DNA from: Ostreococcus lucimarinus
Lineage: Eukaryota
Reading direction: 5' to 3' (one strand)
DNA: 64,000 nt
Assembly (NCBI GenBank): GCA_000092065.1
Contig: CP000587.1
Shown one piece after another: positions 945 to 4,749 of this stretch. The position numbers and the translations under genes are program-made. The notes beneath the pieces were generated by a model, which saw only the letters and a list, made by a program, of their open reading frames with translations, was not told the DNA's origin and ran no database searches. Position 1 is the first letter of the stretch. Every line of letters starts with the position of its first letter.

Positions 945-2060
945 TCAAGCCGCGAGCGCCGTCGGCCGTTGTGGCCGCGTCGCTTTGCAATCGGGGAATT
1001 TCCGCGACACGGCCACGATTGGGTAGTGATCGCTGAGAGCCAACCCCCGAGCGTCTCGACACATCGCATGGTGTACGTAGCCAGAGTCTGCGTGTCTGTG
1101 GTGCAGCGGCACGCCGCGCGTGACCATCGATGAGAGGTCGATGACGTAGTCGAGGACGACTTTCGGCACTAAATCGATGTATCGCGACTCGCCGAGACAC
1201 GGCAACACGACGTGCCGCCAACGCGCGACGGGAAAGGTCAAACGAAAACTTCGGTCGACACCTCTCGTCGATCCTTCTCGTCCAGCGATCGATCCATCGA
1301 TATCAGTCAACGGCGCCATGAGATCGACGGATCCGGGAAATTTGTTCATCAGATCTTCGTACTCGCCCGAGCCAGCGACGATGTTCAAGTCGCCGACGAG
1401 CATAATCCGATCGACCTCGTACCCGTTACCCGCGCATTCCATCTCCGCGCGATGCACCACGTCCTTGATGCACGAGATCTGCTTCGCACGCGTGTCTCGC
1501 CCGGATGACCAGTAGTCGGACTGCAGGTGCGTGTTGAGCACGATGGCGACTCGCGTCGTCGGGTCCTCCGCCGCAGTCAAGCGCAAAAAGCTCGTGCTCA
1601 CGCCTTTGGTGAACGACAATCTCTCGACCCCTTTCGCCGGTAGCGCAGTGAAGTGGTTGCACACCATCGAGAATTTTGACGCGATCATCAACCCGCATCG
1701 GGCGCTCGGGGCGTAAACGAATGGAAACTCCTCGCGCAGCGCCACTTTCAAAGCCTTGGCCGCTTCGACTTCCCACATTTCTTGCAAACACACGACGTCG
1801 ATCGCGTCCGCTCGAGAACAGCACAGAATGTTATTCGCCATCGCGTGCGCGCGCTTCGCGATGTCCGTTCTCGTCCCTCCTTGACCTGCAAACACGCCCG
1901 GCAACATTTGCGCGTTCCACGTGCACACCTTCAACAACGAGTTCATCCCAGCGGGGCGCTCGCGCGCGAGCGCGTCGTCGAGGGCGCGCGTGCGGGCGTC
2001 GAGCGCGTGTGTGTGAGCGATATCTACGGTCGACGGCGGCTGATTCGCGTGCGGTACCAT
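945..2060 (-). CDS. endonuclease/exonuclease/phosphatase (EEP) family protein, neutral sphingomyelinase-like
   Basis: ORF 945..2168. EEP signature blocks LKVCTWNAQ, DVVCLQEM, LVGDLN, SDHYPI. Start placed at internal Met MVPHANQ (2060). The upstream part of the ORF is low-complexity. Confidence 0.6.
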   Translation of the reverse strand: MVPHANQPPSTVDIAHTHALDARTRALDDALARERPAGMNSLLKVCTWNAQMLPGVFAGQGGTRTDIAKRAHAMANNILCCSRADAIDVVCLQEMWEVEAAKALKVALREEFPFVYAPSARCGLMIASKFSMVCNHFTALPAKGVERLSFTKGVSTSFLRLTAAEDPTTRVAIVLNTHLQSDYWSSGRDTRAKQISCIKDVVHRAEMECAGNGYEVDRIMLVGDLNIVAGSGEYEDLMNKFPGSVDLMAPLTDIDGSIAGREGSTRGVDRSFRLTFPVARWRHVVLPCLGESRYIDLVPKVVLDYVIDLSSMVTRGVPLHHRHADSGYVHHAMCRDARGLALSDHYPIVAVSRKFPDCKATRPQRPTALAA

Positions 2061-2333
2061 GGCGTCGCGTTGTGAAGTTCGAGGCGCCGTCGCGTCGTCT
2101 CGGCTCGCGCGACGAATAGCCGAGCGCGCGTGGATTTCACTGGAAGCTAGTCGACACCAATCGTGCACCGTGCCGTGCGCGAGGAGCAGAGTAAATGTAA
2201 ATCGTAAATGGATTTTACAAGCTATCCAACGCCAATCACGACGTCGCGCGCTCCCCTTCTAAAGTAATTGAGAATAGTCACCACGTAAGAGCGTAAATGA
2301 AATTTCTCGTGTCACGACATCCGCTACGTCTGC

Positions 2334-2853
2334 TTAGAAGACGCCGAGAGTGATCGCCTTGTCGATCGGGAGGCAGGCACCGATGCCCATCCAAATCGCG
2401 TAGAAGGTACCGACCAAGAAAACCGTCATCGCCAACGGTCGGCGGAACGGGTTTTGGAACTTGTTGATCGACTCGAGGAACGGCACGGTGATCAAACCAA
2501 CCGGCACGGCAGCCATGGAGAGGACACCGAGGAGCTTGTTCGGGATCACGCGAAGCGCGTTGAAAGTCGGGAAGAAGTACCACTCCGGCAAAATTTCGAG
2601 CGGCGTGGCGAACGGATCCGCCGGCTCGCCGAGCTGGGTCGGTTCCATCACCGCGAGGCCGATGCACAACGCGATGGTACCGAGGATAACGACCGGGAAA
2701 ATGTAGAGTAAATCGTTCGGCCACGCCGGTTCGCCGTAGTAGTTGTGACCCATGCCCTTGGCGAGCTTGGCGCGGAGCACCGGGTCGGACAAGTCGGGCT
2801 TCTTCGTCACCGACGCGACGACTTGGAAGTTACCGCGAGCCTTCGGGGAGACA
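2334..2853 (-). CDS. petD: cytochrome b6-f complex subunit IV (PetD), exon 2 (mature protein plus end of transit peptide), nuclear copy
   Basis: The translation [47 protein letters not shown]...[10 protein letters not shown]...[12 protein letters not shown] is about 80% identical, by eye, to plastid PetD from plants and algae. Codon usage is GC-rich. The in-frame upstream [14 protein letters not shown] reaches a CGCAG acceptor at 2854-2855. Confidence 0.85.
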
Positions 2854-3231
2854 CTGCGATCGCGCGCGAATCGTCGCTTCGTCAGTCTTCATTCATTCGC
2901 CCTCGCGCGCGCGTCCACGCCGCCGTCACCGCCGCGCCGATCCTCATCCGTCGTCTCGCGCGTCCGCGCGCGCGCGTCCGTCGTCCCGCGCCAAACCCTA
3001 TCTTATCATGGGGGGATCGCGATCCCGTCGCGCTTCGTCGCCCGCCCGCGCGTCGCGCGCCGCGCCGACCCCCGATACCCGCCCGCTCCACCGACGCATC
3101 CCTCGCCATTCGCATCGCATCGCGCGTCCCGCGCGTCCCGCGCATCGTTTCGCGCGTCGCCTCGCGCGTCGTCATCCGCCCTCGATCGCGTCCCGTTCGC
3201 GTCGCGCGTCGCCCATTCATCCCCCACGCAC

Positions 3232-3353
3232 CGCAACGGATCGAACCCCCTCACGGCGCCGAACTGCGCGCGCGCCGCGGTGGATTTTTGCGTCGCGCGC
3301 GCGCGCGCGACGACGCGCGGTCGCGCGACGTTGGAGAGCGTTTGCGCGATCAT
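3232..3353 (-). CDS. petD: PetD exon 1: predicted chloroplast transit peptide (MIAQTLSNVARPRVVARARATQKSTAARAQFGAVRGFDPLR)
   Basis: ATG at 3353. A/R/S/T-rich peptide without acidic residues. Ends with 2 nt followed by GTGCGT donor at 3231-3226, phase-compatible with exon 2 (CG+T = Arg). The 378-nt intron has an ACTGAC branch motif about 25 nt before the acceptor. Confidence 0.6.
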
Positions 3354-3732
3354 CGTCTCGTCGCGGTGTGCCGTCGTCGACGCGTCGTCGCGCGTCGTCG
3401 CGCGTCGTCGCGCGTCGTCGCGCGTTTATTTCGCCCCACGGCTCGTAGTCGAGACGCGCGTAAGCCCATCGAGACGTCGCGATCGTCGTCGCCGCCTGCG
3501 CCGCGTCATCGTTCGGTGCGCCATTCGGGACGGGGTTTCATTCATGCGCGCGCGGGTTTATCGTTCGCGCGCTTTCGCGCGTCGCGAGACGTTCGTCTTA
3601 TATTGTACTCGATCTGAAGCCCATGTATTACGCGCGGCGCGCGCGCGGGCGTCGACATCGCATCCGTCGGTAGCGGCGCCGCGAGACGCGCGCGCGCGTC
3701 GCGTCGGGTCGGGCGAGCGTCGGCGAGCCGCG

Positions 3733-4749
3733 ATGGACGACGACGTCGCGCGCGGCGCGCCCGGCGCGGCGCTCGCGGACGCCGCGCGCGCGGTTCGCGA
3801 GCGACGCGCGCGAGGCGACGATGATTACGACGACGACGACGCGACGGCGACGACGACGGCGCGTCGTGGACGCGCGCGGGACGCGGTCGCGCGCGCGCGG
3901 GCGCTGATGGCGCGCGGACGACGCGCGGAGGCGAAGGCGGCGCTGGACGGCGCGGCGGTGGGGCGAGACGACGACGACGACGACGACGCGACGTTCGCGC
4001 TCGCGGCGCTTCGCGCGGAACTGCCGTATCATTTGAACGATGCGCGCGGCTCGTTGGACGCGATGTGCGCGGTGCACGCGATGTGCGCGAGAGAGGCGCG
4101 GGAGGCGCGCGGGGCGGAGGCGCGAGAGGCGTGGCGGCGGAGACGCGACGCGGCGGCGAGGGGGGTGGCGAGACGACACATGTTGGGCGATGATCCGCGC
4201 GCCGCGCTCGTGTGGCTCGATGCGTTGGCGCGTAGCGAACCGGACGAACCGGCGCACTTTTCCGCGGCGGGACGCGCGCACTTGATGATGGGAGACTTAG
4301 AGGGCGCGCGGCTGTGTTTCGAGGCGGCGGAGAAGAAGACGGCGGCGCTCGGCGAGGCGGCGACGGAGGCGCAGCGCGGGCGCGTGTTGCGCGATCGCGG
4401 TGATTACTTTCTCACGGGGTTGAGGTTTCCCGAAGCCAGGACCGCGTTCGCGGCGGCGATGGCGAAGGGCGAGACGGACGTCGCGGCCAAGGTGAACTCG
4501 GCGGTGGCGGCGGTGTACGACGGCGATTTGAATTCTTCGCGCGCGCTTCTAGAGAGCGGTTTGGCGAACGTCGTGAACGCTGATGTGAATTCAAAGGCGC
4601 GCGCGTTCATCTCTCCGAGTGTGGTGAAAAACTTGAATAGCATATACGAGCTCACGGCGCGTTCGCCCGCCGAGGCCAAGCGCGCGATGAACGACTTCAT
4701 CAAGCTCGTCGCGCCCGAGGACTTTGACGTCACGTGCATGGCGACCTAG
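3733..4749 (+). CDS. TPR-like protein, possibly TRAPPC12/TTC15-like
   Basis: ORF 2752..4749. Start taken at MDDDVARG (3733) after an N-terminal low-complexity stretch that overlaps the petD upstream region. C-terminal helical repeat region (GDLEGARLCFEAAE..., VNSAVAAVYDGDLNSSRALLESGL). Family assignment tentative. Confidence 0.45.
   Translation: MDDDVARGAPGAALADAARAVRERRARGDDDYDDDDATATTTARRGRARDAVARARALMARGRRAEAKAALDGAAVGRDDDDDDDATFALAALRAELPYHLNDARGSLDAMCAVHAMCAREAREARGAEAREAWRRRRDAAARGVARRHMLGDDPRAALVWLDALARSEPDEPAHFSAAGRAHLMMGDLEGARLCFEAAEKKTAALGEAATEAQRGRVLRDRGDYFLTGLRFPEARTAFAAAMAKGETDVAAKVNSAVAAVYDGDLNSSRALLESGLANVVNADVNSKARAFISPSVVKNLNSIYELTARSPAEAKRAMNDFIKLVAPEDFDVTCMAT

What the first reader, a model, noticed from the sequence alone, without database searches (positions are those of the whole stretch)
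2334..3353. Nuclear, intron-containing, transit-peptide-bearing gene for cytochrome b6f subunit IV (PetD)
PetD is plastid-encoded in essentially all plants and algae I know of. This window instead holds a full-length PetD that appears to be an expressed nuclear gene.

Seen directly:
- The mature part [47 protein letters not shown]...FQNPFRRP...[12 protein letters not shown] is about 80% identical, by eye, to plastid PetD.
- It is written in the GC-rich nuclear codon usage of the neighbouring genes.
- The mature N-terminus is preceded in frame by [14 protein letters not shown], a V-x-A type stromal-processing site.
- That reading frame has no ATG and runs into a stop, but reaches a CGCAG acceptor at 2854-2855.
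- Upstream, a 41-codon exon (3353..3232) encodes MIAQTLSNVARPRVVARARATQKSTAARAQFGAVRGFDPLR. It is hydroxylated/basic, non-acidic and transit-peptide-like.
- That exon ends with the GTGCGT donor used by the window's other introns, in compatible phase.
- The 378-nt intron has the ACTGAC branch motif.

Interpretation: a functional plastid-to-nucleus transfer, or a nuclear duplicate, of petD. A transfer of a core three-helix thylakoid membrane subunit would be a rare event.
Basis: partly seen in the sequence, partly recalled or inferred. Interest (0 to 1): 0.9.

Follow-up and report, generated by a model that had tools for sequence, protein, structure and literature searches.

The report
Nuclear petD gene of Ostreococcus
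This is a real, working nuclear copy of petD, a photosynthesis gene normally kept in the chloroplast, in the tiny marine alga Ostreococcus lucimarinus; it moved to the nucleus long ago in a whole group of green algae and is already in public gene catalogues, so it is a genuine but not a new exception.

Summary
Window 3353..2334 (minus strand) holds a two-exon gene with one 378-nt intron. It encodes a 213-aa precursor: a 54-aa basic presequence followed by a complete cytochrome b6f subunit IV.

Evidence that the gene is functional:
- GC3 is 0.84, against 0.16-0.25 for plastid genes.
- dN/dS is 0.05-0.13.
- Assembled transcripts cross the splice site.

Evidence that it is old:
- Bathycoccus and Micromonas share the intron position and phase, and the downstream neighbour gene.
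- Pyramimonas has a homologous presequence.

Ostreococcus-type plastome contigs have no petD in about 80% of the plastome, and both ancestral petD positions are empty. Published plastome tables also list petD as not universal in prasinophytes.

So this is a gene transfer, not a duplicate, and it predates the Mamiellophyceae/Pyramimonadales split. Nuclear petD has been known in Euglena since 2003. Verdict: real, correctly interpreted, already known, of moderate interest.

The parts
3232..3353 (-). Exon 1 of nuclear PETD: ATG at 3353..3351, 122 nt, codons 1-40 plus 2 nt of codon 41. It encodes the N-terminal part of the presequence (MIAQTLSNVARPRVVARARATQKSTAARAQFGAVRGFDPL + CG).
   Evidence: The spliced product is identical to XP_001418831.1. 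The exon ends at the conserved F-x-P-L + 2 nt position, as in Bathycoccus and Micromonas.
2854..3231 (-). Spliceosomal intron, 378 nt, phase 2. Donor GTGCGT at 3231..3226, CTGAC-type branch motif at 2886..2881, acceptor CGCAG ending at 2854.
   Evidence: for the arithmetic. An intron at the same position and phase occurs in Bathycoccus (L031 6117..6581, 465 nt) and the Micromonas-like genome (L032 5989..6533, 545 nt, GTGCGT...CGCAG). The transcript-type P0002 lacks it.
2814..2853 (-). Start of exon 2: the last nucleotide of codon 41 plus codons 42-54 ([13 protein letters not shown]). This is the C-terminal part of the presequence, with the inferred processing site VVA|SV.
   Evidence: The RG-x-x-QV...[AN]|[SG]V motif is conserved in Mamiellales and Pyramimonas precursors. 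The cleavage position is inferred, not shown.
2337..2813 (-). Coding sequence for mature cytochrome b6f subunit IV (159 aa, Ser55-Phe213). It has three transmembrane helices (E, F, G) and the PEWY motif at residues 130-133.
   Evidence: TIGR01156 304.5 bits. PF00032. Gapless alignment to 6RQF_J and 1Q90_D. tblastn coordinates 2813..2337. dN/dS 0.05-0.13.
2334..2336 (-). Stop codon TAA.
2215..2219 (-). TGTAA, 114 nt after the stop: a candidate polyadenylation signal. TGTAA is the green-algal signal known from Chlamydomonas; this is an inference.
   Evidence: Not tested against transcripts.
3372..3425 (.). Tandem repeat (CGTCGTCGCG) x5.3, 19-72 nt upstream of the ATG, in the 5' flank/5' UTR between petD and the divergently oriented upstream gene.
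   Evidence: Function unknown.
945..2060 (-). Downstream neighbour on the same strand: an endonuclease/exonuclease/phosphatase-family gene. It is not part of petD but marks conserved microsynteny.
   Evidence: PF03372, E 3.5e-8. Homologues lie immediately downstream of petD in Bathycoccus (E 5e-29) and the Micromonas-like genome (E 1e-25).

Best explanation
This is PETD, the nuclear gene for subunit IV of the chloroplast cytochrome b6f complex, in Ostreococcus lucimarinus CCE9901.

Shown:
- It lies on a nuclear chromosome among ordinary nuclear genes and has one spliceosomal intron.
- It uses nuclear codon bias and is under strong purifying selection.
- Assembled transcripts exist for close relatives.
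- It encodes the complete subunit IV, with the initiator Met replaced by a 54-aa basic presequence.
- Ostreococcus-type plastomes lack petD at both places where other green plastomes carry it.
- Bathycoccus and Micromonas share the intron position and phase and the neighbouring gene. Pyramimonas has a homologous presequence.

Inferred:
- petD moved from the plastid to the nucleus once, before the Mamiellophyceae and Pyramimonadales separated. It gained a presequence exon, and the plastid copy was then lost.
- The precursor is made on cytosolic ribosomes and imported through the envelope translocons by its presequence. The stromal peptidase cuts it at about VVA|SV, which would leave the same N-terminus as the plastid-made protein.
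- It is then inserted into the thylakoid with its N-terminus in the stroma, probably by the SRP/Alb3-type route used by the three-helix LHC proteins.
- There it assembles with plastid-encoded cytochrome b6, cytochrome f and PetG.
For: Identity and location:
- Full-length PetD.
- The spliced protein equals XP_001418831.1 / A4RZP4, on a 783-kb O. lucimarinus contig.
- Neighbouring genes are eukaryotic. The downstream Exo_endo_phos gene is syntenic in three genera.

Function:
- GC3 0.84, against 0.16-0.21 for plastid petD and 0.25 for Ostreococcus-type plastid petB.
- dN/dS 0.05-0.13 across Ostreococcus, Bathycoccus and Micromonas.
- All 83 invariant PetD columns are kept, including PEWY.
- P0002 reads across the exon junction and into the window's 5' UTR.
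- There are complete-ORF MMETSP transcripts in Micromonas polaris and Pyramimonas.

Age:
- Identical intron position and phase in three genera.
- Presequence homology between Micromonas-type and Pyramimonas: z 8.7-9.3, 0 of 2000 shuffles.
- N-extended PetDs form one clade in an NJ tree.

Loss from the plastome:
- The contigs include ones carrying the exact O. tauri chloroplast Rps7.
- They read ...psbJ-petB-psaC-atpB... and ...rpoA-rps9-atpI..., with zero tblastn hits at E<=1 for four PetD queries. Five control plastome loci hit at 1e-76 to 1e-109.
- The rRNA operon confirms the inverted repeat on the map.
- petD is absent from the lists of genes shared by all prasinophyte plastomes.
Against: - About 10-12 kb of the second single-copy region, beyond atpA, could not be read. 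That is roughly a fifth of the unique plastome sequence.
- The plastome contigs are Ostreococcus-type environmental assemblies, not the CCE9901 plastome itself.
- No targeting predictor was available, and no import, processing or proteomic data were seen.
- The cleavage site and the insertion route are inferences. V-x-A is not conserved in Bathycoccus or Pyramimonas, which have ISN|S and VCN|S.
- The transcript evidence comes from close relatives and environmental populations, not from this strain.
- The NJ tree has no support values, and most plastid-type sequences in it are unnamed.
Confidence: 0.9

Rival explanations
1. Nuclear duplicate: the plastome still carries a working petD, and the nuclear gene is an extra, possibly specialised, copy.
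For: About 10-12 kb of the Mamiellales-type plastome was not read. I could not open the two papers that describe these plastomes.
Against: - Both ancestral petD positions are empty in Ostreococcus-type and related plastome contigs, with no PetD-like sequence in about 80% of the plastome.
- Gene-content legends of two plastome papers exclude petD from the universally shared set.
- The unread stretch must still hold psaA, psaB, rbcL, petA and many small genes.
- Purifying selection (dN/dS 0.05-0.13) has been maintained across three genera. That is what is expected of a sole copy.
Confidence: 0.04
2. Non-functional plastid-DNA insertion in the nucleus (NUPT or pseudogene), or a plastid/nuclear misassembly.
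For: Metagenome assemblies of petD are often chimeric (P0001, P0040/41, P0064/66, P0067 and P0063/L033), so chimeras are a real hazard for this gene.
Against: - GC3 is 0.84, against 0.16-0.25 in plastid genes.
- The ORF is intact and all invariant residues are kept.
- There is a spliceosomal intron at a position shared by three genera, with conserved synteny in three independent chromosome-scale assemblies.
- dN/dS is well below 1.
- There are spliced transcripts.
- No other plastid-like sequence occurs in the window: tblastn with PetB finds nothing.
Confidence: 0.01
3. Several independent transfers: Ostreococcus, Bathycoccus, Micromonas and Pyramimonas each moved petD to the nucleus separately.
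For: The Ostreococcus and Bathycoccus presequences are not significantly similar to each other (z 0.9). The P0031 and P0047 lineages have short, apparently intron-less or divergent presequences.
Against: - Same intron position and phase, and the same downstream neighbour, in the three Mamiellales genera.
- The Micromonas and Bathycoccus presequences each align significantly and collinearly with Pyramimonas (z 6.8-9.3).
- All N-extended sequences form a single clade.
Confidence: 0.05

Closest known systems
Nucleus-encoded subunit IV (PetD) and cytochrome f (PetA) of Euglena gracilis (Santillan Torres et al. 2003, Biochim Biophys Acta 1604:180; cited in PMC11314055)
   Same: A core b6f membrane subunit that is normally plastid-encoded is encoded in the nucleus and imported. 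Euglenid plastomes lack petD (PMC5572947). By the title of Turmel et al. 2009 and from memory, the euglenid plastid derives from a Pyramimonas-like alga, which is the same lineage that carries the gene described here.
   Different: Euglena also moved petA, whereas prasinophyte plastomes all keep petA. From general knowledge, Euglena precursors need a signal-peptide-containing presequence for a three-membrane plastid; the Ostreococcus presequence has no hydrophobic segment. I could not obtain the Euglena sequence, so orthology is untested.
Plastid-encoded PetD (spinach 6RQF chain J; Chlamydomonas 1Q90 chain D)
   Same: Same protein: gapless alignment over 159 residues, about 80-85% identity, PEWY and the [10 protein letters not shown] stromal loop conserved.
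   Different: - Encoded in the nucleus, with the initiator Met replaced by a 54-aa presequence, and interrupted by a spliceosomal intron.
- GC3 0.84 instead of about 0.2.
- Helix G is less hydrophobic (1.68 vs 2.02). There are three clade-specific substitutions: Ser for Asn at mature position 112, Tyr at 135, and Met for Leu at 139.
Annotated orthologues: Bathycoccus prasinos 'cytochrome b6/f complex subunit IV', Micromonas polaris MMETSP1327 transcript, Pyramimonas obovata transcript
   Same: Same precursor architecture, same intron position and phase (Bathycoccus, Micromonas), same downstream neighbour, and a homologous presequence.
   Different: Presequences diverge quickly: Ostreococcus vs Bathycoccus is not significant. 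The residue before the inferred cleavage site is Ala in Ostreococcus and Micromonas but Asn in Bathycoccus and Pyramimonas.
Nuclear-encoded three-helix thylakoid proteins (LHC family) and organelle-to-nucleus transfers of hydrophobic subunits (e.g. chlorophycean/legume cox2), recalled from general knowledge
   Same: They show that a three-helix membrane protein can be made in the cytosol and imported. In the mitochondrial cases the transferred genes show reduced hydrophobicity.
   Different: Here overall hydrophobicity is unchanged (GRAVY 0.536 vs 0.534) and helices E and F are unchanged. Only helix G is softer, and that comparison is not phylogenetically corrected. No sequence relationship to the LHC family.

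Membership tests
Cytochrome b6f complex subunit IV (PetD; TIGR01156 / Pfam PF00032) | Full-length match to the family profile above the curated cut-off | tested here: met
   TIGR01156 equivalog, 304.5 bits against a cut-off of 127, residues 55-213 on model positions 2-160. PF00032, 64.2 bits against a cut-off of 20.7.
Cytochrome b6f complex subunit IV (PetD; TIGR01156 / Pfam PF00032) | Three transmembrane helices E, F, G collinear with solved subunit IV structures | tested here: met
   Gapless phmmer alignment to 6RQF_J (2-160) and 1Q90_D (2-159), E 6e-88 and 3e-81. Helix hydropathy 2.4/2.1/1.7. No structure was predicted.
Cytochrome b6f complex subunit IV (PetD; TIGR01156 / Pfam PF00032) | Qo-site PEWY motif and the conserved stromal [10 protein letters not shown] loop | tested here: met
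   P130-E131-W132-Y133 and N171-P180 are invariant columns in alignment A1.
Cytochrome b6f complex subunit IV (PetD; TIGR01156 / Pfam PF00032) | A separate cytochrome b6 (petB) partner gene in the same organism type | tested here: met
   A 215-aa petB is present on Ostreococcus-type plastome contigs L006-L019.
Functional endosymbiotic gene transfer (nuclear gene for a plastid protein) | Nuclear location: spliceosomal intron, nuclear codon usage, eukaryotic neighbours | tested here: met
   GT..AG intron of 378 nt. GC3 0.84, like the neighbours. Exact match to a protein on a 783-kb O. lucimarinus contig. Synteny in two other genera.
Functional endosymbiotic gene transfer (nuclear gene for a plastid protein) | N-terminal chloroplast transit peptide | tested here: inconclusive
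   A 54-aa extension, net +9, one acidic residue, Ala/Arg/Val-rich, with no hydrophobic stretch, ending where the plastid protein begins. The composition fits a green-algal transit peptide, but no predictor or import assay was available.
Functional endosymbiotic gene transfer (nuclear gene for a plastid protein) | Expression as a spliced mRNA | tested here: met
   P0002 spans the junction and the 5' UTR. The Micromonas polaris and Pyramimonas MMETSP transcripts have complete ORFs. These are from relatives and populations, not from strain CCE9901.
Functional endosymbiotic gene transfer (nuclear gene for a plastid protein) | Loss of the organellar copy | tested here: met
   No PetD-like sequence in about 80% of the Mamiellales-type plastome, and both ancestral positions are empty. 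The controls are positive. Consistent with published legends. The remaining 10-12 kb was not read.
Functional endosymbiotic gene transfer (nuclear gene for a plastid protein) | Purifying selection on the nuclear copy | tested here: met
   dN/dS 0.049-0.131 for the mature region in three genera.
NUPT / plastid-derived nuclear pseudogene | Plastid-like base composition, disrupted or unconstrained ORF, no expression | tested here: not met
   GC3 0.84 against 0.16-0.25. Intact ORF. dN/dS well below 1. Transcripts exist.
Orthologue of the Euglena gracilis nuclear petD | Euglenid PetD nests within the Pyramimonadales/Mamiellophyceae nuclear PetD clade | not testable with these tools

The most novel reading that the evidence does not exclude
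The transfer happened once, in the common ancestor of the Mamiellophyceae and Pyramimonadales. The nuclear petD of euglenids is this same gene, inherited from the nucleus of their Pyramimonas-like endosymbiont rather than moved from the euglenid plastid. That would make petD a nucleus-to-nucleus hand-me-down. It would also explain why euglenid plastomes lack petD. The softened helix G and the three clade-specific substitutions could then be import-related adaptations. I could not establish whether this link has been stated in the closed-access literature.
Probability: 0.45. Interest if true: 0.45.

Novelty: already known. Interest (0 to 1): 0.33.

Why it matters
petD is one of the genes most often cited as 'always' organelle-encoded. 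Both main explanations for why organelles keep genomes predict that it should stay in the plastid: redox control of core electron-transport subunits (the CoRR hypothesis) and the difficulty of importing hydrophobic proteins.

A whole ecologically dominant group of marine green algae has run b6f with an imported subunit IV for hundreds of millions of years, with no overall loss of hydrophobicity. That is a useful natural counter-example.

It is also a practical opening. Subunit IV could be engineered by nuclear transformation in Ostreococcus. The presequence is a candidate tool for relocating other plastid membrane-protein genes.

It does not change what is known, because the gene and the plastome loss are already in public records.

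Tried and rejected
- Literature. Eight full-text searches and about a dozen papers were checked. Robbens 2007 and Turmel 2009 are not held. None of the 26 open-access papers that mention petD and Ostreococcus has a title or abstract pointing to the nuclear gene, and the eight I searched for the term do not discuss it. [quoted passage not shown] Three plastome contigs inspected in turn were other green algae with a normal petB-petD pair. A viral-contig scan with Rpl23 found nothing. The last 10-12 kb therefore stayed unread.\n- P0063, a 160-aa plastid-looking PetD inside the nuclear clade, was rejected as evidence for a plastid copy. Its 1.5-kb scaffold carries a bacterial type-IV-pilin-like gene, and GC jumps inside the petD CDS, so it is a chimeric assembly.\n- GTGCGT donor enrichment was rejected as evidence: 66 found against 73 expected.\n- The idea that nuclear relocation required a general drop in hydrophobicity was not supported. 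Only helix G differs.\n- Structure prediction and fold search were not run, because the sequence match to solved subunit IV structures is gapless and decisive.
Full report
**What is at the locus.** On the minus strand of window 3353..2334 there is a two-exon gene.
- Exon 1 is 3353..3232, 122 nt.
- The intron is 3231..2854, 378 nt, GTGCGT...CGCAG, with an ACTGAC motif at 2886..2881.
- Exon 2 is 2853..2334, 520 nt.
- Exon 1 is 40 codons plus two nucleotides, so the intron is in phase 2.
- Upstream of exon 2 the frame has no ATG and meets a stop 14 codons before VSPKARG.

**Identity of the protein.**
- Residues 55-213 are a complete cytochrome b6f subunit IV. They match TIGR01156 (equivalog) at 304.5 bits against a cut-off of 127, covering model positions 2-160, and Pfam PF00032.
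- They align without gaps to spinach 6RQF chain J (E 6e-88) and Chlamydomonas 1Q90 chain D (E 3e-81).
- Ser55 aligns with Ser2 of the plastid-made protein. The precursor is therefore subunit IV with its initiator Met replaced by 54 extra residues.
- The PEWY motif and the [10 protein letters not shown] loop are intact.

**Whose genome this is.**
- An exact-sequence look-up finds the 213-aa spliced product in NCBI as ABO97124.1 / XP_001418831.1, 'predicted protein [Ostreococcus lucimarinus CCE9901]' (UniRef100_A4RZP4), on a 783,246-bp contig.
- The same 90% cluster holds a complete-ORF MMETSP transcript of Micromonas polaris.
- Bathycoccus prasinos has a 212-aa orthologue that sources name 'cytochrome b6/f complex subunit IV'.
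- Pyramimonas obovata and two unnamed MMETSP transcriptomes have 216-aa versions.

**Is the gene functional?**
- GC3 is 0.84, like the neighbouring genes (0.73 and 0.84). It is unlike plastid petD on control contigs (0.16-0.21) or Ostreococcus-type plastid petB (0.25).
- Between Ostreococcus, Bathycoccus and a Micromonas-like genome, dN/dS of the mature region is 0.049-0.131, with dS 0.6-1.8.
- All 83 invariant PetD columns are kept.
- P0002, from a source of assembled sequencing runs, reads ...GFDPLR|VSPKARGNF... straight across the junction. It starts with HRDET, which is the translated 5' UTR of the window, and aligns continuously to the predicted mRNA (92% over 211 aa).
- GTGCGT on its own is not enriched in the window (66 against 73 expected). 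The splice rests on these comparisons and not on the motif count.

**Transfer or duplicate: the plastome test.** I rebuilt most of a Mamiellales-type plastome from public contigs.
- A PetB cluster that is very abundant in marine samples (P0289, listed in 210 blocks of the collection) led to loci L006-L009.
- Their Rps7 falls in the 90% cluster of YP_717227.1, ribosomal protein S7 (chloroplast) of Ostreococcus tauri.
- Contigs carrying that exact O. tauri protein have the same gene order.
- Further loci came from the ycf1-like ORF, Rps7, RpoC2 and Rpl23.
- The first single-copy region of the map reads: psbC-psbD-psbB-orf543-rpl32-clpP-atpE-atpB-psaC-petB-psbJ..psbE-ftsH-psbH-psbN-rps4-ycf3-rps18-rps12-rps7-tufA-rpoB-rpoC1-rpoC2-rps2.
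- Next comes the inverted repeat: 16S, two tRNAs, 23S, 5S (confirmed with Rfam), and psbA.
- The second single-copy region begins: psbZ-rpl23-rpl2-rps19-rps3-rpl16-rpl14-rpl5-rps8-infA-rps11-rpoA-rps9-atpI-atpH-atpF-atpA.
- In control plastomes of other green picoalgae, petD follows petB directly. In L002 it also adjoins rpl12-rps9-rpoA.
- In the Mamiellales-type contigs both of those positions are empty.
- tblastn with four PetD queries at E<=1 finds nothing in L006-L030, while every control locus scores 1e-76 to 1e-109.
- This covers one whole single-copy region, the repeat, and the first 10 kb of the other region, about 80% of the unique sequence. The 10-12 kb beyond atpA could not be reached.
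- Independently, the legends of two plastome papers list the genes shared by all compared prasinophyte or green plastomes as 'petA, B, G', without petD (PMC4194372; PMC4860620). The Chloropicophyceae share 'petA, B, D, G, L' (PMC6486808).
- Together this favours transfer with loss of the plastid copy.

**Age of the transfer.**
- In Bathycoccus (L031, GCA_964199575.1) the gene has a 465-nt intron. In the Micromonas-like genome (L032) it has a 545-nt intron with GTGCGT...CGCAG.
- All three introns sit after the codons for F-x-P-L plus two nucleotides, which is the same position and phase.
- In all three genomes the next gene downstream on the same strand is an Exo_endo_phos protein: PF03372; tblastn E 5e-29 and 1e-25.
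- The presequences of Micromonas-type and Pyramimonas proteins align collinearly along their whole length (MAAIAS...VR...SVR...F-x-P-L-x-V...RG-x-LQV). The score lies 8.7-9.3 SD above shuffles (0 of 2000). Bathycoccus against Pyramimonas gives z 6.8-8.1.
- In an NJ tree nearly all N-extended sequences form one clade, apart from plastid-type PetDs.
- The simplest reading is one transfer, with acquisition of a presequence, before the Mamiellophyceae and Pyramimonadales diverged.

**How it most likely works.**
- The presequence is 54 aa, net +9, with one acidic residue. It is Ala/Arg/Val-rich and has only 6 Ser+Thr. That is closer to a green-algal transit peptide than to the Ser/Thr-rich plant type.
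- It has no hydrophobic segment, which fits a protein whose N-terminus stays on the stromal side.
- These steps are inferred, not shown: import by the envelope translocons, cleavage near VVA|SV, SRP/Alb3-type or spontaneous insertion, and assembly with plastid-made cytochrome b6, cytochrome f and PetG.
- Relocation did not need a general loss of hydrophobicity. GRAVY is 0.536 in 60 nuclear-type sequences against 0.534 in 43 plastid-type sequences, and helices E and F are unchanged.
- Only helix G is softer (1.68 vs 2.02, p 4e-10). Three substitutions mark the nuclear clade. This comparison is not corrected for shared ancestry.

**Comparison with what is known.**
- Nucleus-encoded subunit IV and cytochrome f were reported for Euglena gracilis in 2003 (reference 225 of PMC11314055). 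Euglenid plastomes lack petA and petD (PMC5572947).
- The euglenid plastid is held to come from a Pyramimonas-like alga (title of Turmel et al. 2009). The euglenid gene may therefore descend from the nuclear gene described here. I could not test this because no euglenid PetD sequence was within reach.
- The searchable open literature does not discuss nuclear petD in Ostreococcus. The two most relevant papers are not held.

**Verdict.** The finding is not new: the gene model has been public since the O. lucimarinus genome release, orthologues are annotated as subunit IV, the plastome loss appears in published gene tables, and the kind of event has a 2003 precedent. It remains a good textbook exception to the rule that core b6f membrane subunits stay in the plastid. 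I rate interest at about 0.33.

Noticed in passing
Proteins P0079, P0086, P0090, P0103 (JGI contigs of about 1 kb): PetD proteins of 238-274 aa with 80-118-aa N-terminal extensions. The extension holds a hydrophobic stretch (VAWGSFLWFVAVMLLAGCVTLGI) and then a Ser/Thr/Ala-rich region. The mature part is of a type that, from memory, looks like red-lineage PetD (DPKLRAKL..., ending AISLGFW). This looks like a bipartite presequence, that is, a separate case of nuclear petD in some complex-plastid alga.
   Followed up: no
L033 (ENA scaffold, 1,479 bp) and proteins P0001, P0040, P0041, P0064, P0066, P0067: Chimeric assemblies of petD are common in the public collections. L033 joins a bacterial pilin-like gene and an AT-rich petD head to a GC-richer nuclear-type petD body. 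Others carry internal duplications, or a Bathycoccus presequence on a foreign C-terminus. Single short contigs of this very conserved gene should not be trusted.
   Followed up: partly
L008 11422..19071, compared with L006 11422..12867: In one Ostreococcus-type plastome the atpB gene is split by two insertions. Each carries a reverse-transcriptase/maturase/HNH ORF (a group II intron type). Contigs that are 96% identical have an uninterrupted atpB, so intron presence is polymorphic in natural populations.
   Followed up: no
L023 19236..19979 (minus strand), between the 5S rRNA gene and psbA: A 247-aa ORF with a LAGLIDADG-like domain (PF14528, E 6.6e-9) lies in the inverted-repeat region of a Mamiellales-type plastome. 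It is probably a homing endonuclease.
   Followed up: partly
Proteins P0031, P0032, P0038 (196 aa; P0031 on a 41,956-bp ENA contig): An uninterrupted ORF with a short 38-aa presequence (MLTLKPVIARPNVRVCAPFRRKSVRPQRSRGNLQVAAS). It keeps the RG-x-LQV end but not the F-x-P-L intron site. This looks like an intron-less nuclear petD in another, unidentified prasinophyte-like lineage.
   Followed up: no
window 3372..3425: A 10-nt tandem repeat (CGTCGTCGCG x5.3, 97% matches) lies just upstream of the petD start codon, in the roughly 300-bp gap between petD and the oppositely oriented upstream gene.
   Followed up: no
window 2752..4749 (+), overlapping the petD intron and exon 1 on the other strand: A 665-aa mechanical ORF. 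Its first part is probably an artefact of the CG-rich sequence. The C-terminal 338 aa (from about 3730) has no Pfam match but does have a homologue near petD in the Micromonas-like genome (tblastn E 6e-11, L032 2778..3326), so it is likely a real, unannotated-function neighbour gene.
   Followed up: partly
Alignment of 60 nuclear-type and 43 plastid-type PetD sequences; mature positions 112, 135, 139: Three substitutions mark the nuclear clade: Ser for Asn in ESINKF, Tyr in TFYAIW, and Met for Leu in WMGIG. The third helix is less hydrophobic than in plastid-encoded PetD. This could be lineage history or adaptation to import.
   Followed up: partly
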